Shown here: positions 428 through 47,070 of the stretch, in pieces
Layout of the letters: each line of letters starts with the position of its first letter
How positions within the stretch are numbered: position 1 is the first letter of the stretch
IMG/VR virus record: IMGVR_UViG_3300019861_000001
Location: 1-48,535 of that record
Direction: 5' to 3' (one strand)
DNA: 48,535 nt
Source of the DNA: a virus
The notes under the pieces: model-generated
Told to the model about the DNA's origin: nothing
The model's database searches: none
What the model saw: the letters and a program-made list of their open reading frames with translations, nothing else
Translations under genes and position numbers: made by a program

Positions 428-433
428 TATATA

Positions 434-487
434 GGTAGGACTGGATAATAATAACCGCCTTTATTCCTCATATCGTCCAGTCCTACC
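434..487 (+). other. Long compound hairpin after ORF 38-427 and before tRNA-like gene 1
   Basis: 12-bp perfect stem GGTAGGACTGGA (434-445) / TCCAGTCCTACC (476-487). The 30-nt loop holds an inner AATAA/TTATT stem. It is followed by an A-run, not a U-run. Confidence 0.5.
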
Positions 488-498
488 TTACCAAAAAA

Positions 499-618
499 GG
501 TCAAGGTGGCGAAAAGGTAGACGCAGGTTAATTACCTCCTGCCCATCGAGCGTCTTATATAAAGTGATTAATACATAGGCGAGTTAAGCAGGTGAGGGTT
601 CGAATCCCTCCCTTGACC
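499..618 (+). tRNA. Oversized (~119 nt) tRNA-like gene 1, anticodon not assignable
   Basis: Acceptor GTCAAGG (500-506) / CCTTGAC (611-617). T at position 8. D arm GCG-AAAAGGTAGA-CGC with GG in the loop. Canonical T arm GAGGG-TTCGAAT-CCCTC (594-610). In place of a normal anticodon/variable region there is a short AGGT-TAATT-ACCT hairpin (525-537) and a CCTGC/GCAGG stem (538-542/588-592) enclosing 45 nt. Confidence 0.55.
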
Positions 619-644
619 CTTTAGTAATTTATAGAAGGAAGGTA

Positions 645-884
645 ATGATGGAAAAAAGAAATGCACTAAAACTTCTAGGAATACTGATAGTAGGTTTAGC
701 AGGGAGGTTTACATTGGCAGATGATAAATCGCCAAGATTAGAGTTTAGACCTCTTGACCTTAAACCACTTGACTATGTTATTTATGAAGGTAGCGTTCGT
801 AATATTATAATCTATACAAAAGAAGAAAGAAAGTTAGTGATACCTTTTGATGATATTGTTAAGGCATTGGAAACATCAGAATAA
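645..884 (+). CDS. Small protein with N-terminal signal/TM segment
   Basis: 79-aa ORF with SD GAAGGAAGG. Hydrophobic N-terminus ALKLLGILIVGLAG. Confidence 0.7.
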   Translation: MMEKRNALKLLGILIVGLAGRFTLADDKSPRLEFRPLDLKPLDYVIYEGSVRNIIIYTKEERKLVIPFDDIVKALETSE

Positions 885-898
885 ATAGGTGCGACAAG

Positions 899-1018
899 CC
901 TTGGACAGACAGCAATTAAGTGTGCTGTAAATTAATGCTTGGTGTTAATTTCCTCTATACCAAGACAATAATGTTATTTTACCGTTAGAGGCTAAAGGTG
1001 CAAATCCTTTTCCAAGGC
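899..1018 (+). tRNA. Oversized (~120 nt) tRNA-like gene 2, non-canonical, enclosed by an extra outer stem 889-1026
   Basis: Acceptor-like CCTTGGA (899-905) / TCCAAGG (1011-1017). T-arm-like AAAGG-TGCAAAT-CCTTT (994-1010). Hairpins ACAGC/GCTGT (909-913/924-928), AAATTAA/TTAATTT (929-935/945-951) and CCTCTA/TAGAGG (952-957/986-991). Outer stem GTGCGAC/GTCGCAC (889-895/1020-1026). Confidence 0.45.
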
Positions 1019-1046
1019 AGTCGCACTTTAAAGAAAGGAGGATTAA

Positions 1047-9079: not shown

Positions 9080-12000
9080 CTACAGCCCCTCTCCTAATCC
9101 TTCTCCCAATCCTCCAAGACCAGAATCTAGACCATTAGGTTTCTTGGTCTTGCGAGTATAGAATAGATACTCCTTAAGATTCCCTGTCTCACTAAGTTTC
9201 TTTATATCCTTAATTCCTCTAAATCCAGGAACTAGTCCACCTAATCTCTCTTTAAAGGAATCCCAAGTAGAGTCAAGATTTCTACCAGACTGTATAGCCC
9301 TTAATAACTGTATAAAATCCCAGACTAAGTTAGGGACATATCCAAAGTTATTAGGCATAGCCCCTAGAAGTATACTACTCTTATAGTCTATCCCAGTAAA
9401 TTTATTTAGAGCCCAGAATACTAAGAACTGACCTGCTGTTCTAGCAGCTGCTTTTCCATCCCTTTCCCTTACCATTGACATAAGGTGATCTATATACGAT
9501 AGTGACCAACTAGAAAACTGTAGTCCTAGCTTTCCAGTTCTACCTTGCATAATCATAGGTAAGTCTATTCCATATAACCAAGCTGTGTTTGCCATAGCTT
9601 TCTCACCAGCTCGTATCCAATAAGAACGTGGGAGTCTAGGTCTACTAGTTTTAGCTTCGTAATATCCAGTAGAGAATCCATTTACAGCCCCTCCAAGGTC
9701 TATGTATTTATAAGCTACCATAAGCTGGTCTCTAATCTTTCTGGGTAACTCGCTAAACCCATGGATAGGTAATTCCTCAACTAAAAATTGAGATAGTCTA
9801 AGCTTTGCCATAGGAGAGTCAGCCATAGCATCTTTTATCTCCTGAGAACGAGAATGCATTACTCCTCTTGCGTATGCCTCAATACCATACTTGTTGACTA
9901 TTAACCACTGTTGTAATGAGTCACGAAGTGCTGGTCTAGGAGCTGCACCAAGATATGCAGCGTAACTTGCATTTAATAGAATATCTTCTACCTGCCTCAG
10001 TATCTTACTTCCTTCATCTTCCTTCATCCAGAGTTTTTTAGCTAAGTTCTTAACTGATCTATCTTTGGCTTTATCTACTCCCATAGGCCGTCTCATTACA
10101 GCCACATTAAAAAACTCCTTTACTAACTCCTGTTTATCAGGACTCATTTTCTTCTCTATTGGAGCTGCTTCCTTAATAGCCTCATTAAATACCCTAGTTT
10201 TAAGACCTCGTCTGTAGTATTCATTAAATAGCTTTCTCGCATCTAACTCTGTATCTACCAATCCCCCCTCAAATGCCTCTCTAAAATCAGCCCAGAACTC
10301 TAGCTCCTTCACACCTCTAGGGGAAAAGGAATACCTTATTGCAGCCTTCCTATTTTCTTCTGGTGTTCTCTTAGGACTATAATAGGGCTCTCTCTTAGGA
10401 GCCTGTATATCGTACTTGTCATAGAGATAGTTATATACTTTATTAAGTTTATTAAACGCATCTAATTCAAGCGGGGATAGTTCAGAAATAGGTAACTCCA
10501 ATCTTTGTGCTAAGGATATTCTTTTAAGTGCATCTGTAACATATTTCTTCCTTTGACGTCTAGGTATATTAGGATTATTTCTAATTGCTTTATCCAGAGT
10601 ATCAAATATCTCTCTATCAAGCTCATCCCCAACTCTAAGTCCCTCAATCCACCTCACCATTGCAGTTCTATAAGGTCTCATAACTTCATCACCAGCCCTA
10701 CGTCTCATAGGAAGTAACCATTTAGCTACCCCTAGTACATCTTCTGAAGGTCTAGTTTCATAAAACCTCTGAAGGTCAGCAATAACCCTATTGACGTGGG
10801 CATCAGTTAGTATATCACTATTCAAATCGAGTTTGGAATTCTCTATAAAATCACTGAGAGCATCTTCACTAACCTCATATCTATTCACCCCTTTCCTAAG
10901 TTCCTCCTTTACCTTTTGGGAGATATCAGGATTATTCAGTATTTCTCTCTCACTTTCTAATACTATATTTTCTATACTCATCAACTTAGCTTTAAGTAAC
11001 TGAGCCTCCTTGAAGGTGAGTTCACTTAGATCCTTGACATACCTGATACTATTGCTAGCTATCTTCCTAACATCCTTCTCAGTAAACCCTTTCATGTTAC
11101 CTAGACCTTTGAGGTCTTGAATATCAAGTTGAGTTGCCGGAGGTTCGTTCTTACGGGCACGTTCTATATACTCTCGAGTTAGTTTAGCATCAGCTGTCTC
11201 TGTTTTGAAGAGTCGTTTGGAGACGAACTCTGAGAGCTGTTGGAGACCTAACATATCAAGAGTAGTTGTTCCTACAATCTCTGGAAGATTCTCGTCAAAT
11301 ACTACATAGTTCCGTTCACCTGAGGAAGCTCCTATATAAGTGTTTCCTGGGATGCCTGCTTTGAGGAGGAGTTTAGAAGTCTTCTCCTTCCCTATACCAT
11401 ATATAAGTTCACTTTGAATATCCTCTCCAGTCATCTTAACAAAGTCTCTGACTTCTGAAGGTAACTTAGCTTGGTCTCTTAGTTGATCTACTAAGCGAGT
11501 TGCATCCAAATGCTGTAGATTCTGTTTAGAAATTTCACCTGAAGATACTTCCTTGACTATCTCTTTAGCTATAGCCTCACATTTATTAGAAGGAGCAGGC
11601 TTATCCAAATCCAACCACTCAGCATCTTCGGGAAGTTTGACTTCGTGGAGGACCCTTGATGATGTAGTATCTATAATACCTTTAGATGCTTCTTTTAATT
11701 TATTAATAACATCTACAGTCTCATTAATATATCCAGGAGTTGCAAGTTTATTATTTTCAAGTGTTTTAATATACTCTAGTTTTTTAGTCTCCTCTTTTAT
11801 CCATCTATTTATATGATCTCTAATATATTCATTTCTCTCTTTGCTAGCAGGAAGGCTTAGATATGCCTCATTCTTTATATACCTAAGCTTACCATCTTCA
11901 AGAAATTCAGATGCATCTTTTCCATTAATAGTAATATCTATATTTCTTCCAATACTCTTAGCATACCACTCCCCAACCTTCTTCTTACTCGTAAAGTAAT

Positions 12001-23014: not shown

Positions 23015-24139
23015 TTATACAATATTATCTAACCCTACCCCATTGAGATAGCCCCAGCCAGTTGGGAAATGGAACTCAATGCCCATCTCAGTCAGGTATT
23101 CCTCGTTTGTCCCATCCTTCCTGGTATATCCAGTATTCTGTTTCTCATTGTCAGGATAGAAAGTAGTATCAGTAATGATCCTACTTTTCAGATTTGCCGG
23201 CTCATAGATAACCATACTATTCCTATTAGCCGCTTCATAAGAGAACAGAGGATGAGTTTTAATGTTGATCTTTCCAAATGGAGTTACCCACTCAATAACT
23301 TGAATCCCATAGGATTTAGTCTGAGGAGTAAATGTCCATTGACCATAGGTCTTAGCGATCTTGTTAAGACCCAGAAGTGCTCCACTACCAGCGAGACAGA
23401 GTTTCTCAGCACTACCATACCTGAACATAAGTTCAAGATAGGTATCAATCCAGTCCTCACCACTGGCAATCCACGTGTCTCCTGAGTAAGTAGCGTTGAG
23501 TGTGAAGTCATTGACATTAGCAGACGCATAGGTCTTGATAATATCAACTAGCCCTCGAGTTGTTCTCTCAGGCTTACCATTAGCCCCAATATTCTCAGTC
23601 ATGATACCCCAGATAGATGCTTTCTCCATCTCGATAGAATGGAGTTCCAAACACTCACGTTTCATCTCTTTATATGCATCTCCAGTCCTTAACTTAGTCT
23701 GCCGAGCAGTACGAGTAATATCCAGAGATGTTCTAAAGATCTGAGTATAATTGTAGATCTTGACAGGGTCATAACTGATAGCATCTGGCATAGTCGCACC
23801 CTCAGGGTTGATATTACCAATTACTAACAGTCTGTCGGCATCACTAATATCATGACTTTGAGCGGTAGTAGTGTCAGCCTCCAATAGTTTAACTGTTATA
23901 CAAGAACTAGCGCCATTCTTCTGGACAGCCATAACCTTGGCATTGACATCTACCTCATAATCACTCTGATCACGCAGAAGAACTTGATGTCCAGCTCTAA
24001 AGTGATCTGAGTCTGCTTCAGAACATTTGATGTAGAGAACAGAGCCAGCAACACCACCTGATACATATGCAGCAGTCATAGCCGCATCAGTATAGCGACC
24101 AGTAATAGTTGCTGCTTGAGTAGGTAGAGTCTTAGTCCA
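23015..24139 (-). CDS. Major capsid protein, exon 2
   Basis: The frame stays open 60 nt upstream of the track ATG (24079) back to WTKTLPTQAATITGRYTDAA, with no SD before 24079. It joins in frame to exon 1. The junction is uncertain by 1-5 nt. Confidence 0.7.
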   Translation of the reverse strand, partial: WTKTLPTQAATITGRYTDAAMTAAYVSGGVAGSVLYIKCSEADSDHFRAGHQVLLRDQSDYEVDVNAKVMAVQKNGASSCITVKLLEADTTTAQSHDISDADRLLVIGNINPEGATMPDAISYDPVKIYNYTQIFRTSLDITRTARQTKLRTGDAYKEMKRECLELHSIEMEKASIWGIMTENIGANGKPERTTRGLVDIIKTYASANVNDFTLNATYSGDTWIASGEDWIDTYLELMFRYGSAEKLCLAGSGALLGLNKIAKTYGQWTFTPQTKSYGIQVIEWVTPFGKINIKTHPLFSYEAANRNSMVIYEPANLKSRIITDTTFYPDNEKQNTGYTRKDGTNEEYLTEMGIEFHFPTGWGYLNGVGLDNIV

Positions 24140-25007
24140 CCCGGACTATCATTAAACTTTCATTTAATGCTGGACTATATCTTAACCCTTAGTCAAGGGT
24201 TTGACATTATAGTCTCTGAAGGTTTCATTGCATCTAAGTATTTATGGATTCTACTTGATTTTCTCATAACATGGAAGAAACATCCACTATCTATAAACGA
24301 GCGTATATTAGGTTTAATAACATACATAGTAGTCCCATGCCCAGAAATCTGCTCATGAATCTTTCCTACTTTTACTCCTAGTTTCTGGAGAAGTCTTGTT
24401 ACATCTTCTACTAGAGTTTTTATTCTTGCAGCATATCCAAGTCTCCACGATAGCCCAAATCTAGAACCTGGATTCTTATTCTCTACTATTGTCCCATCTG
24501 TATCAAACAATCCAGCTACGAAATTTAATCTAGCATTTTTACTAGCCCTGAAGATCTCGTCTGCAAGAAACAGTTTCTCTCTAATAAAATAATGAAAGAA
24601 ATCATAAATAAGCTCGTTATTAATAGCTAATGAGTACATAGTAGTTTTGTTAGGATTTACATAACTTGAGACAGTGTAGTTACCACCAAATAGTACATTA
24701 ATCTCCTCACATACTCTTACTACACATTCTAAATCCATATTAGCTATCATAACATTGTTGTTAGTTAACATTCTTTCACCATTCCAAGTAACATACTTCT
24801 TAACACTTCCATCACCTAATAAAGCTCCTATAGAGTATCCAACTACTTCGATGTATTTATCCATAACTTGCAATGAATTTCCCTGCTGATTGTCCATTGT
24901 GTTATCCTCCTTAGTTTTACGCTTTGGTCAAGAGAGGCTTTAGGATTTTCCAGCAATTTCTGTCATTTATTCGACGGGATTTCGCCCGAAGCAACCAGTG
25001 AACTCTA
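24140..25007 (-). mobile_element. Group-I-like intron (~868 nt) carrying a LAGLIDADG homing endonuclease ORF
   Basis: Interrupts the capsid ORF. P1-like pairing: exon CAACT (25007-25011) with intron GGTTG (24992-24996). Long-range helices bracket the ORF: TGCTGG/CCAGCA (24950-24955 / 24168-24173) and TCTTGACC/GGTTAAGA (24926-24933 / 24180-24187). The intron ends in G. Confidence 0.65.
24193..24897 (-). CDS. LAGLIDADG homing endonuclease (double-motif)
   Basis: Motifs IGALLGDGSV and FVAGLFDTDGTI. SD AAGGAGG 8 nt upstream. Confidence 0.85.
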   Translation of the reverse strand: MDNQQGNSLQVMDKYIEVVGYSIGALLGDGSVKKYVTWNGERMLTNNNVMIANMDLECVVRVCEEINVLFGGNYTVSSYVNPNKTTMYSLAINNELIYDFFHYFIREKLFLADEIFRASKNARLNFVAGLFDTDGTIVENKNPGSRFGLSWRLGYAARIKTLVEDVTRLLQKLGVKVGKIHEQISGHGTTMYVIKPNIRSFIDSGCFFHVMRKSSRIHKYLDAMKPSETIMSNP

Positions 25008-40186: not shown

Positions 40187-40215
40187 TTGACATTGTTTGG
40201 GAGTTGTGGTATAAT
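40187..40215 (+). promoter_or_regulatory. Sigma70-type early promoter P2 with extended -10
   Basis: TTGACA-17 nt-TATAAT. Shares AGTTGTGGTATAAT with P3 and P4. Confidence 0.7.
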
Positions 40216-41952: not shown

Positions 41953-41981
41953 TTGACAAACCATTATAGTTGTGGTATAAT
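41953..41981 (+). promoter_or_regulatory. Sigma70-type early promoter P4
   Basis: TTGACA-17 nt-TATAAT with AGTTGTGGTATAAT. Confidence 0.7.
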
Positions 41982-44044: not shown

Positions 44045-44072
44045 GGGGAGGTTATTCCTCCCCTCTCTTTTT
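44045..44072 (+). terminator. Rho-independent terminator
   Basis: GGGGAGG-ttatt-CCTCCCC followed by TCTCTTTTT. Confidence 0.8.
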
Positions 44073-46850: not shown

Positions 46851-47066
46851 ATGCCAAGAATAACTATAAAGTATCTTCAAGAGTCAAATGAGTTTTTGAG
46901 AAAGAAATGTTATTCATTAGAAGAGAGATTAGAATTACATAGAAGAGAAGAAGAACATCTAAAGGGAATACTAAAAACTTACCAAGGAATGACTTCTCTT
47001 ACAGTAGCCTGTGAAAGGGTATGTGAGTCATTAGCTCATGTAATATCTGATATAAAAAGGAGGTGA
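46851..47066 (+). CDS. Hypothetical coiled-coil protein
   Basis: 71-aa ORF with SD GGGAGG. Confidence 0.65.
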   Translation: MPRITIKYLQESNEFLRKKCYSLEERLELHRREEEHLKGILKTYQGMTSLTVACERVCESLAHVISDIKRR

Positions 47067-47070
47067 TTAA

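What the first reader, a model, noticed from the sequence alone, without database searches (positions are those of the whole stretch)
496..1026. Two ~120-nt tRNA-like RNAs with a perfect acceptor/T-arm frame but no readable anticodon arm
Element 1 (499-618) has a canonical 5' half resembling class II tRNA-Leu/Ser: T8, a 3-bp D stem and GG in the D loop. It also has a canonical GGGTTCGAATCCC T arm and a 7-8 bp acceptor. Between D and T arms there are 69 nt: a 4-bp/5-nt mini-hairpin (AGGT-TAATT-ACCT) plus a 5-bp stem enclosing 45 nt.

Element 2 (899-1018) repeats this architecture with less canonical loops. Its T loop is TGCAAAT, its acceptor starts with C, and it has a 7-bp AT stem with a 9-nt loop and a 6-bp stem enclosing 28 nt.

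Both have their terminal helix extended by extra flanking pairs across a bulge: 496-498/620-622 for element 1 and 889-895/1020-1026 for element 2.

Possible identities:
- tRNAs with short introns or giant variable arms;
- tRNA mimics of the bacterial Y-RNA (YrlA) type;
- decoys for tRNA-targeting host defences.
Basis: partly seen in the sequence, partly recalled or inferred. Interest (0 to 1): 0.7.

Follow-up and report, generated by a model that had tools for sequence, protein, structure and literature searches.

The report
Anticodon-less tRNA-Leu look-alike in phage
Element 1 belongs to a widespread phage family of tRNA-shaped RNAs, not in Rfam or the papers I could search, that keep the amino-acid-accepting half of a leucine tRNA but have no anticodon arm; element 2 is a different, merely well-folded intergenic RNA.

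Summary

**Element 1 (499-619)**
- It has a 7-bp acceptor stem, U8, a tRNA-Leu-type D arm, a canonical T arm and pre-tRNA-like flanks.
- Where the anticodon arm should be there is a 13-nt linker. A long arm sits in the variable-arm position.
- A covariance model built only from unrelated phage contigs finds it at 59 bits (E 1e-13). It is the only significant hit in the window.
- At least 120 IMG/VR viral contigs carry the same frame.
- Among 42 copies sharing one acceptor sequence, frames are 96% identical. Their centres are no more alike than shuffled sequence.
- The centres still keep a helix abutting the T stem (z = 7.1), often in a pseudoknot arrangement (z = 4.8).
- Intron-mode ARAGORN assigns 44 different "anticodons" to family members, so the intron reading is arbitrary.
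- The family has no Rfam family of its own and was not found in cultured-phage records. It is nearly absent from bacterial genomes.

My best reading is inferred, not shown. Element 1 is cut out of the early operon like a tRNA and acts as a non-decoding tRNA mimic. That mimic would be read by factors that recognise the acceptor stem and the elbow.

**Element 2 (887-1028)**
- It is strongly structured (z = -5.5).
- It does not match the family model (10 bits, E 0.9).
- Its one homologue keeps only the closing stem.

The parts
433..488 (+). Stable hairpin (14-bp stem plus 3 inner pairs) between the stop codon of ORF 38-427 and element 1. It may act as a 3' protective or processing hairpin for the upstream cistron.
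   Evidence: -23.8 kcal/mol, z = -4.7, 0 of 200 shuffles as stable. Relatives carry a hairpin of different sequence at the same place.
499..619 (+). Element 1: an anticodon-arm-less, tRNA-Leu-type tRNA-like RNA, spanning G-1 to C74.
   Evidence: Model R1 gives 59.1 bits, E 1e-13. ARAGORN default and Rfam find nothing. ARAGORN calls it only in intron mode.
500..506 (+). Acceptor stem 5' strand (GTCAAGG). It pairs with 611-617. G499 (-1) can pair with C618 (position 73).
   Evidence: In the family, all 7 acceptor pairs show changes on both sides.
507..524 (+). U8, G9 and a class II (tRNA-Leu-type) D arm: stem 509-511/522-524 and loop AAAAGGTAGA with G18G19 at 516-517.
   Evidence: The same 20-mer occurs in a bona fide phage tRNA-Leu(CAA) in L008. 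The D stem is 99.6% paired in the family.
525..537 (+). A 13-nt linker in place of the 17-nt anticodon arm. It can form the 4-bp/5-nt mini-hairpin AGGT-TAATT-ACCT. Alternatively 527-533 can pair with 566-572 in a pseudoknot.
   Evidence: In the family, the strand that opens the long arm most often starts 12-13 nt after the D stem.
538..592 (+). Expanded arm in the variable-arm position: closing helix CCTGC 538-542 / GCAGG 588-592 and inner helix 551-555/577-581.
   Evidence: minimum-free-energy and centroid folds. In the family, a helix abutting the T stem has z = 7.1 against dinucleotide shuffles.
594..610 (+). T arm GAGGG-TTCGAAT-CCCTC.
   Evidence: The T stem is 100% paired in the family, with 3 of 5 pairs changed on both sides.
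611..619 (+). Acceptor stem 3' strand (611-617), discriminator C618 and C619. No CCA is encoded.
   Evidence: C74 occurs in 84 of 98 family frames and in 109 of 116 true tRNAs of the same loci.
887..1028 (+). Element 2: an intergenic RNA closed by a stem. The closing helix has two parts, 887-895/1020-1028 and 898-905/1011-1018. The interior has several branches. It ends a few bases before the Shine-Dalgarno sequence of ORF 1047-1451.
   Evidence: -50.4 kcal/mol, z = -5.46. The L002 homologue keeps only the closing helix and the position next to the ribosome-binding site. R1 gives 10.3 bits, E 0.9.
994..1010 (+). T-arm-like hairpin of element 2, AAAGG-TGCAAAT-CCTTT. It has G where U55 should be.
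   Evidence: It is not conserved as a hairpin in L002.

Best explanation
**Element 1** is a gene for a non-decoding tRNA mimic.

- It belongs to a phage-borne family derived from class II tRNA-Leu.
- The family keeps the acceptor stem, the U8/D-arm/T-arm core (the tRNA elbow) and an arm in the variable-arm position.
- It has lost the anticodon arm, which is replaced by a linker of about 12 nt that often pairs into the loop of the long arm.
- Element 1 lies inside the + strand early/replication operon and has no promoter or terminator of its own.

Proposed mechanism (inferred):
1. The RNA is excised from the polycistronic transcript like a pre-tRNA. RNase P cuts at the 5' end, an endonuclease or exonucleases trim the 3' end, and CCA is added.
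2. This also separates the upstream DUF669-like cistron, which ends in its own hairpin, from the small accessory genes downstream.
3. The released RNA of about 118 nt has a tRNA-like L shape. It is read by factors that recognise only the acceptor end and elbow, such as a synthetase, the CCA-adding enzyme, or enzymes and toxins that target the acceptor end. It cannot enter decoding.

Most family members keep the determinants named for LeuRS in the one study I read: A73, the core tertiary pairs and a variable arm. They lack only the arm that LeuRS does not need. Element 1 itself has C73 with G-1, so its charging identity, if any, is not leucine.

**Element 2** is a separate thing. It is an intercistronic RNA closed by a long stem, and probably a processing, stability or translation-control element for the gene that follows it.

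Shown: the anatomy, family membership, conservation pattern and genomic context. Inferred: the processing, any charging and the function in trans.
For: **Membership**
- Model R1 was built without the window's clade. It hits 499-619 at 59.1 bits, E 1e-13. The next best hit in the window is 14 bits.

**Family size**
The pattern constrains neither the acceptor nor the centre.
- For 101 of those 120 hits a complementary 7-nt acceptor strand was found at the expected place.

**Synteny**
- Relatives of the window phage carry such elements directly after the same gene: L002, L003, L039, L040, L045, L047, L079 and L080.

**Frame pairing**
- Acceptor 98.9% paired, with changes on both sides at all 7 pairs. 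T stem 100% paired.

**Centre**
- Frames are 96% identical while centres are 53.8% identical, against 52.3% for shuffled centres.
- A helix abutting the T stem has z = 7.1. The pseudoknot arrangement has z = 4.8. Two serial hairpins reach only z = 1.7.
- That helix most often opens 12-13 nt after the D stem.
- L002 and L003 both show the pseudoknot arrangement with different sequences.

**No anticodon**
- ARAGORN default of 79 members. Intron mode gives 44 different anticodons.

**Flanks**
- T-1, A73 and C74 occur as in true tRNAs of the same loci.

**Transcription context**
- No promoter or terminator lies near either element. Consensus early promoters are at 40187 and 41953, and a terminator at 44045-44063.

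**LeuRS determinants**
- A73, U8-A14, G18-U55, G19-C56 and variable-arm orientation matter. The anticodon arm is dispensable for aminoacylation (PMC2377443).

**Precedent**
- T4 RNAC is a stable RNA of unknown role with a T arm and an acceptor-like stem. R1 scores it at 24 bits, E 0.0013.
Against: - No expression, processing or aminoacylation data exist for any member.
- Element 1 has C73. An A73C change lowered leucylation 48-fold in Aquifex aeolicus.
- Element 1's own central fold is ambiguous. At least three mutually exclusive pairings involve ACCTCCTGC (534-542). There is no close homologue with informative variation, because L001 and L009 are identical to the window.
- The search pattern fixed part of the D and T arms, and my filters required acceptor and T-stem pairing. 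Percent-paired figures are therefore inflated.
- No conserved protein partner was found near family members. The best cluster occurs in 23 loci of the 131 in the id range I selected, not all of which hold a sequence.
- Most relatives of the window phage have only a hairpin at this position, so the element is dispensable for this lineage.
- Near-identical frames across diverse phages could reflect a DNA-level role in recombination or homing rather than an RNA function.
Confidence: 0.5

Rival explanations
1. A purely cis-acting "tRNA punctuation" signal. The element would exist only so that the host's tRNA-processing enzymes cut the early polycistronic mRNA at this point. The released RNA would have no function of its own.
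For: - It is embedded in an operon with no promoter or terminator of its own.
- A hairpin lies just upstream and a ribosome-binding site begins about 15-20 nt downstream.
- In relatives the same slot holds assorted structured elements, some with T-arm-like hairpins, for example in L006, L043 and L064.
- Only the acceptor, T and D parts are conserved.
Against: - In large phages, members sit inside tRNA arrays where true tRNAs already provide cut sites. Up to three copies occur per locus, each with a different centre.
- The centre keeps a specific helix and pseudoknot arrangement. From general knowledge, a minihelix substrate for RNase P would not need this.
- The full Leu-type D arm and A73 are kept.
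Confidence: 0.22
2. A functional decoding tRNA that carries a short intron and/or a giant variable arm, spliced to a normal size.
For: - Intron-mode ARAGORN at default threshold calls exactly one gene in the window: tRNA-Thr(AGT) at 500-619 with a 29-nt intron.
- The Rfam tRNA model passes its gathering score on some family members by skipping the centre.
Against: - The same mode yields 44 different anticodons on one uniform Leu-type body. Only 6 of the 67 calls are Leu.
- The "anticodon stem" it picks for element 1 is 4 A-U pairs plus 1 G-U pair. The leftover 21-nt "variable arm" has no stem.
- Only about 12 nt lie between the D stem and the long arm, too few for a 17-nt anticodon arm.
- From general knowledge, bacteria are not known to have protein-spliced tRNA introns, and 30-45 nt is far too short for a group I intron.
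Confidence: 0.06
3. A decaying tRNA-Leu pseudogene, or a recombination or homing scar. On this view the conserved ends matter at the DNA level, as cassette boundaries, and the RNA has no function.
For: - Orphan 3' halves and a truncated 5' half occur in relatives: L016 1062-1090, L003 5745-5770 and L004 5232-5300.
- Duplicated 3' halves occur in L199.
- Frames are 96% identical while centres are unrelated.
- The distribution among relatives is sporadic.
Against: - Acceptor and T stems stay perfectly paired through changes on both sides across subfamilies.
- The centres keep a helix in a fixed place despite random-level sequence similarity.
- Optional D-loop hairpins covary.
- These are marks of selection on RNA structure.
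Confidence: 0.1
4. A bacterial Y-RNA (YrlA-like) module that binds a Ro/Rsr protein.
For: - YrlA also mimics the T and D arms of tRNA (my recollection of the literature, not tested here).
- Element 2 has a long terminal stem.
Against: - No Rfam match, even at E <= 10.
- The termini of element 1 are in the acceptor stem.
- No TROVE/Ro or RtcB match appeared among the window proteins I scanned. That scan was not exhaustive.
Confidence: 0.02

Closest known systems
Bacteriophage T4 RNAC (species 1 RNA), with RNAD
   Same: - A phage-encoded stable RNA of 139 nt.
- It has a canonical T arm (CCGGG-TTCGAAT-CCCGG), an acceptor-like terminal stem and long hairpins where the anticodon arm would be.
- It is transcribed with tRNAs and its function is still unknown.
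- The family model scores it weakly but significantly: 24 bits, E 0.0013.
   Different: - T4 RNAC has no tRNA-Leu-type D arm.
- Its acceptor helix is imperfect.
- It is a single gene in a tRNA cluster, with no known family of hypervariable centres.
- Sequence homology to element 1 is not established.
Class II tRNA-Leu (RF00005)
   Same: - The acceptor, U8, D arm (GGCGAAA..GGTAGACGC) and T arm are those of bacterial tRNA-Leu.
- The element's 20-mer GGTGGCGAAAAGGTAGACGC occurs in a true phage tRNA-Leu(CAA).
- The long arm occupies the variable-arm position.
- Some family members pass the Rfam tRNA gathering score.
   Different: - There is no anticodon arm.
- ARAGORN default and Rfam do not call element 1.
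- The discriminator is C73, not A73.
tRNA-like non-coding RNAs cut out by tRNA-processing enzymes (mascRNA of MALAT1, herpesvirus MHV68 tRNA-like RNAs, laboratory tRNA scaffolds)
   Same: The concept is the same: a tRNA frame that directs processing and stability while the anticodon region is altered or replaced. This comparison rests on my recollection of the literature and was not tested here.
   Different: - Those are eukaryotic or artificial and have no sequence relation to this family.
- mascRNA gave only an 18-bit sub-threshold match on a relative, L003.
tmRNA and YrlA (bacterial tRNA mimics)
   Same: Both combine a tRNA-like acceptor/T module with non-tRNA domains, including pseudoknots in tmRNA.
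   Different: - ARAGORN's tmRNA mode finds nothing.
- Position 3:70 of element 1 is a T-A pair, not G-U, and there is no tag reading frame.
- From my recollection of the literature, tmRNA lacks a full D arm, whereas element 1 has one.
- From the same source, the termini of YrlA lie in the Ro-binding stem rather than the acceptor stem.
- There are no Rfam hits.

Membership tests
Canonical decoding tRNA (Rfam RF00005 / ARAGORN) | A 7-bp acceptor stem with a discriminator, a D arm with G18G19, and a T arm with a TTCRANY loop | tested here: met
   Met for element 1. Element 2 meets this only loosely: an 8-bp acceptor-like stem, a 6-bp D-like stem and the T loop TGCAAAT.
Canonical decoding tRNA (Rfam RF00005 / ARAGORN) | An anticodon arm (5-bp stem, 7-nt loop) directly after position 26 | tested here: not met
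   Element 1 has 13 nt (525-537) before the long arm. They form at best a 4-bp stem with a 5-nt loop. The family-wide linker is most often 12-13 nt.
Canonical decoding tRNA (Rfam RF00005 / ARAGORN) | Detection by standard tools at default thresholds | tested here: not met
   ARAGORN finds 0 genes. Rfam finds nothing at gathering score and no tRNA hit at E <= 10. tRNAscan-SE was not available.
Intron-containing tRNA | Removing the intron restores a cloverleaf whose anticodon agrees with the tRNA body and is consistent across homologues | tested here: not met
   Intron-mode ARAGORN gives Thr(AGT) for element 1, whose body is Leu-type. Across 67 of 79 family members it gives 44 different anticodons.
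Intron-containing tRNA | A recognisable splice signal (archaeal bulge-helix-bulge motif or a group I intron core) | tested here: inconclusive
   There is no Rfam intron hit, and the insert is only 30-45 nt. I did not run a formal bulge-helix-bulge search.
Phage anticodon-less tRNA-Leu-like RNAs (family defined here, model R1) | A significant match to a model built from independent members | tested here: met
   Element 1 scores 59.1 bits, E 1e-13. Element 2 scores 10.3 bits, E 0.9, so it does not meet this test.
Phage anticodon-less tRNA-Leu-like RNAs (family defined here, model R1) | A helix whose 3' strand ends 0-4 nt before the T stem and whose 5' strand opens about 9-18 nt after the D stem | tested here: met
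   In element 1, CCTGC 538-542 pairs with GCAGG 588-592. The helix opens at offset 13 and ends 1 nt before the T stem.
YrlA / bacterial Y RNA | An Rfam YrlA match, termini in a Ro-binding stem, and a neighbouring rsr gene | tested here: not met
   No Rfam hit. The termini of element 1 are in the acceptor stem. No TROVE match appeared among the proteins scanned, and that scan was not exhaustive.
tmRNA | A G3:U70 alanine identity pair, a tag reading frame, and detection by ARAGORN's tmRNA mode | tested here: not met
   ARAGORN -m finds 0 genes even at the lowered threshold. Position 3:70 is a T-A pair.
Substrate of LeuRS (leucine identity) | A73, the tertiary pairs U8-A14, G18-U55 and G19-C56, and an oriented variable arm (PMC2377443) | tested here: inconclusive
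   The core nucleotides and an arm in the variable-arm position are present in element 1. Its discriminator is C73, and A73C lowered leucylation 48-fold. A73 is present in 118 of 141 candidate frames. Charging itself cannot be tested with these tools.
Intercistronic RNase III-type processing or stabiliser hairpin (considered for element 2) | A long, mostly double-stranded closing helix between cistrons that is cleaved in vivo | not testable with these tools
   A closing helix of 9 + 8 bp is present and is conserved with the L002 homologue. Cleavage is unknown.

The most novel reading that the evidence does not exclude
Phages of many lineages may carry a previously undescribed class of RNA. It would be a sequence-conserved tRNA-Leu "top half plus elbow" scaffold bearing a hypervariable, pseudoknotted cargo in place of the anticodon arm.

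The scaffold would secure tRNA-type processing and perhaps aminoacylation: by LeuRS for A73 members, and possibly a His-like identity for G-1:C73 members such as element 1.

The fast-evolving cargo would give each copy its specificity, for example by neutralising particular host factors or defences that act on tRNA or RNA.
Probability: 0.3. Interest if true: 0.85.

Novelty: new variant of a known kind. Interest (0 to 1): 0.72.

Why it matters
Standard annotation misses these genes or mislabels them. Depending on the tool they come out as nothing, as a "tRNA", or as an intron-bearing tRNA of arbitrary isotype.

If the family is real, it is a common phage non-coding RNA with an unusual evolutionary signature: a near-invariant tRNA frame around a centre with no detectable sequence similarity.

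What it could open up:
- It offers a natural example of the laboratory "tRNA scaffold" idea.
- It gives many new relatives-in-kind for T4 RNAC, whose role is still unknown.
- It yields a testable hypothesis that phages make tRNA mimics which can be processed, and perhaps charged, but never decode.

Such RNAs could bear on phage takeover of translation factors or on evasion of tRNA-directed defences.

Tried and rejected
**Detectors on the window**
- ARAGORN default and Rfam, at gathering score and at E <= 10, found no tRNA, tmRNA or Y RNA.

**Public collections**
- Megablast and blastn of the region against cultured-phage records found nothing.
- A typical family member also found nothing there.
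- An exact search for the 3' frame of element 1 in IMG/VR found only near-identical relatives and ordinary tRNAs.

**Guide or antisense idea**
- The centres of elements 1 and 2 have no significant complementarity elsewhere in the 48.5-kb genome. The best match is 20 nt with 2 mismatches, in the sense orientation.
- Family centres match nothing in 1.5 Mb of fetched loci apart from copies of themselves.

**Conserved protein partner**
- None was found. The neighbours are varied replication and recombination genes.

**The -1:73 "eighth base pair" as a family signature**
- Rejected, because true tRNAs in the same loci show the same T-1, A73 and C74.

**Host mimicry of the AGTCAGG frame**
- Rejected, because the frame is absent from 185,579 species genomes apart from 11 short metagenome-assembled contigs.

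**Other**
- Literature searches found no description of such RNAs.
- A first sliding-window structure scan timed out. The repeat is only a rough guide.
- I did not run the concatenated-centre search against phage records. Its expected yield was low and the query very long.
Full report
**1. Setting**

The window is a phage genome of about 48.5 kb.
- The + strand carries an early/replication module. It encodes a DNA ligase, a PD-(D/E)XK nuclease, an AAA_24 ATPase, a ParB-methylase fusion, a dCMP deaminase, a UDG-PolA fusion and a DUF3987 protein.
- The - strand carries structural genes, including an SU10-type capsid protein and portal.
- Both elements lie in intergenic gaps of the + strand module. 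Element 1 sits between ORF 38-427 and ORF 645-884. Element 2 sits between ORF 645-884 and ORF 1047-1451.
- ORF 38-427 is only weakly DUF669/SSB-like.
- No promoter-like or terminator-like site flanks either element.
- Perfect consensus promoters lie at 40187 and 41953. A clean intrinsic terminator lies at 44045-44063.
- I therefore infer that both elements are transcribed as part of long mRNAs.

**2. The observation**

- Element 1 has a tRNA-Leu-type 5' half: acceptor, T, G, then GCG-AAAAGGTAGA-CGC. It has a textbook T arm. Between them are 69 nt: a 4-bp mini-hairpin and a 5-bp stem enclosing 45 nt.
- Element 2 has an 8-bp acceptor-like stem extended by a 9-bp outer stem. It also has a 6-bp D-like hairpin, an AT hairpin, a 6-bp stem enclosing 28 nt, and a T-like hairpin with the loop TGCAAAT.

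**3. Standard detectors**

- ARAGORN default finds no tRNA or tmRNA in the window.
- Rfam 15 finds nothing at gathering thresholds. It finds no tRNA, tmRNA or Y-RNA match at E <= 10 in 380-1100.
- In intron mode at default threshold, ARAGORN calls exactly one gene: "tRNA-Thr(AGT)" at 500-619 with a 29-nt intron and a stemless 21-nt variable region.
- At a lowered threshold it also calls "tRNA-Asn(GTT)" at 898-1019.

**4. Relatives by synteny**

Homologues of ORF 38-427 retrieved 6 IMG/VR loci and 80 metagenome loci.
- L001 and L009 are identical to the window.
- L002 (protein 73% identical) and L003 (76%) carry element 1 homologues with the same acceptor and T arm. These span 218 and 285 nt. 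They have a large structured insertion in the D loop and different centres.
- More distant relatives carry elements of 97-221 nt with the same Leu-type frame directly after the same gene: L039, L040, L045, L047, L079 and L080. L003 carries a second copy.
- That second L003 copy passes the Rfam tRNA gathering score only because the aligner skips a 122-nt centre.
- Most relatives have only a simple hairpin in this slot.
- L016, L003 and L004 hold orphan halves of such elements.
- The element is therefore accessory and is gained and lost.

**5. A large family**

The pattern GGTAGACGC-N50-80-GGTTCGAATCC is too long-spaced to match a normal tRNA-Leu.

*Frames*
- For 101 of the 120 hits, a complementary 7-nt acceptor strand followed by T-G-GCG lies at the expected place. 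That requirement was not part of the pattern.
- Sizes are 97-146 nt.
- Many contigs share nearly the same frame, tAGTCAGGTGGCGGAAT(T)GGTAGACGC ... ACAGGTTCGAATCCTGTCCTGACTAc, with entirely different centres.
- Among 42 distinct centres with this acceptor, from 37 loci, frames are 96% identical. Centres are 53.8% identical, and the shuffled control gives 52.3%.

*Distribution*
- Up to three copies with different centres occur in one locus, next to ordinary tRNA arrays.
- The true tRNA-Leu genes of those phages have different frames.
- The AGTCAGG frame is absent from the cultured-phage collection.
- In 185,579 species genomes it occurs only on 11 short metagenome-assembled contigs of mixed taxonomy. 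It is therefore a phage frame rather than a copy of a host tRNA.

**6. Structure statistics**

*The frame.* The alignment holds 79 non-redundant members, with the window's clade left out.
- The acceptor is 98.9% paired, with changes on both sides at all 7 pairs.
- The T stem is 100% paired, with 3 of 5 pairs changed on both sides.
- Sliding the 3' partner of each pair drops pairing to 32-39%.
- These percentages are inflated, because I selected sequences for pairing. The variety of compensated pair types is the informative part.

*The centres.* I compared 103 centres with 100 dinucleotide shuffles.
- A helix whose 3' strand ends 0-4 nt before the T stem is strongly enriched (z = 7.1, 0 of 100 shuffles).
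- A pseudoknot arrangement, in which the first nucleotides after the D stem pair into that helix's loop, is enriched (z = 4.8).
- Two serial hairpins are not enriched (z = 1.7).
- The helix most often opens 12-13 nt after the D stem. In a class II tRNA I would expect about 19-20 nt there.

*Resulting anatomy.*
- The anticodon arm is replaced by a short linker, and the variable arm is expanded.
- Element 1 fits exactly. Its linker is 525-537. Its helix is 538-542/588-592, which opens at offset 13 and ends 1 nt before the T stem.
- L002 (GCAGGT/ACCTGC crossing GAGAATAGA/TCTGTTCTC) and L003 (CTGGAG/CTCCAG crossing CCTTAAAGCT/AGCTTTAAGG) show the pseudoknot arrangement with unrelated sequences.
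- Element 1's own centre allows several mutually exclusive pairings, and I could not decide between them.
- Some members carry an extra covarying hairpin in the D loop between A14-A15 and G18. From general knowledge of tRNA structure, insertions are tolerated at that site.

**7. Independent membership test**

Model R1 was built from the 79-member alignment.
- In the window it finds 499-619 at 59.1 bits, E 1e-13. The next best hit is 14.3 bits.
- Element 2 scores 10.3 bits, E 0.9, which is within the noise.
- R1 also scores the second L003 copy (54 bits), true class II tRNAs (29-43 bits) and, weakly, T4 RNAC (24 bits, E 0.0013).

**8. The intron reading**

- On the 79 members, ARAGORN default.
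- Intron mode, with 44 different anticodons covering most amino acids. Only 6 of the 67 calls are Leu, although every body is Leu-type.
- The "anticodon" is therefore an artefact of the freedom that the intron model allows.

**9. Processing context**

- Family members have T at -1 (59 of 77 frames with A73), A73 (118 of 141 candidates) and C74 (84 of 98 frames).
- True tRNAs in the same loci show the same pattern: T at -1 in 73 of 116, and C74 in 109 of 116.
- The flanks thus look like ordinary pre-tRNA flanks. The helix does not extend beyond -1:73.
- Frames with C73, including the window's clade, almost always have G-1 (10 of 11). From general knowledge, G-1:C73 is the signature of bacterial tRNA-His.

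**10. What it most likely does**

*Shown:* a conserved acceptor, D and T core; an arm in the variable-arm position; no anticodon arm; pre-tRNA-like flanks; an operon context.

*Inferred:* tRNA-type excision and CCA addition, giving a stable L-shaped RNA that cannot decode.

The retained parts coincide with the LeuRS determinants in PMC2377443, and the missing part is the one dispensable for aminoacylation.
- Dispensable: the anticodon arm.

This makes "chargeable but non-decoding" the most economical reading for the A73 majority. Element 1 has C73, and A73C lowered leucylation 48-fold in that study. Its identity is therefore open.

Whether the RNA acts as a decoy, a sink, a non-ribosomal aminoacyl carrier or a scaffold for a specific cargo cannot be decided here. 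A cis role as an mRNA cut site is compatible with any of these and may coexist with them.

**11. Element 2**

- It is very stable (-50.4 kcal/mol, z = -5.46).
- Its only homologue, in L002, keeps the two-part closing helix. That includes one G-C to G-U change in the outer stem. It also keeps the position just before a ribosome-binding site.
- That homologue has a shorter, different interior without a T-arm hairpin.
- Related phages carry other elements closed by a long stem before ribosome-binding sites.
- I read element 2 as an intercistronic processing, stability or translation-control structure. Its resemblance to a tRNA is not above chance.

**12. Comparison with known systems, and novelty**

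- The closest known thing in kind is T4 RNAC, with RNAD. These are stable phage RNAs of unknown role (PMC3014915, PMC9697503). RNAC has a T arm and an acceptor-like stem but no anticodon arm.
- The family has no Rfam family of its own. Some members pass as "tRNA" under RF00005.
- I found no description of it in the searchable literature.
- I rate it a new variant of a known kind, namely tRNA-like non-coding RNA.
- Its distinctive trait is a conserved scaffold around a hypervariable centre.

Noticed in passing
window 24193-24897 (- strand), next to 23015-24079: A LAGLIDADG homing-endonuclease ORF (PF14528, E 8e-11) lies directly upstream of the SU10-type major capsid ORF. The capsid ORF's Pfam match begins only at profile position 56. 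The capsid gene may be interrupted by an intron or intein. Rfam found no group I intron.
   Followed up: partly
window 433-488: A strong hairpin (z = -4.7) follows the stop codon of ORF 38-427. Relatives have a hairpin of unrelated sequence at the same position, with or without a tRNA-like element after it.
   Followed up: partly
L016 1062-1090; L003 5745-5770; L004 5232-5300; L199 (reverse strand) about 9310-9336: Orphan 3' halves (T arm plus acceptor strand, or the acceptor strand plus the conserved TTTAGTAAT trailer) and a truncated 5' half of tRNA-like elements. These suggest cassette replacement by recombination at the conserved frames.
   Followed up: partly
L199 (reverse strand) about 9180-9310 and L099 (reverse strand) about 2550-2650: A shared sequence, CTAGCCTT(G/T)(A/T)TTTGGGGCAAG(T/C)GCTCGT..GCGGG(T/C)AAGTCAATACTAAA, follows a tRNA-like element in two different phage contigs. 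It is unidentified and may be another structured RNA.
   Followed up: no
L002 4444-4560, L003 5186-5262, L045, L080, L069; also L133, L166, L208, L211, L115, L127: An optional hairpin is inserted in the D loop of family members. Its base is conserved (TGRCAAG...CTTGYCA in the window's lineage) and its stems covary. In L003 and L004 a second small hairpin capped by GTAA or GAAA follows it.
   Followed up: partly
window 534-540: The linker of element 1 contains ACCTCCT. From my knowledge this matches the anti-Shine-Dalgarno sequence of 16S rRNA. It is complementary to the AGGAGGT-type ribosome-binding sites of this phage, for example at 47058-47070. It is also conserved in L003 (TTACCTCCAGCC). 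This may be chance.
   Followed up: no
L006 4397-4478, 4485-4600, 5045-5155: A more distant relative has three intergenic elements closed by TGTGCC/GGCACA or TGTGGCAG/CTGCCACA stems. One holds a T-arm-like CCAGGTTCGATCCCTGG and scores 21.7 bits with R1.
   Followed up: no
window 40187-40215, 41953-41981, 44045-44063: Two perfect extended -10 sigma-70 consensus promoters (12 of 12 matches, with TG) and a clean intrinsic terminator mark out the early transcription units upstream of the elements.
   Followed up: no
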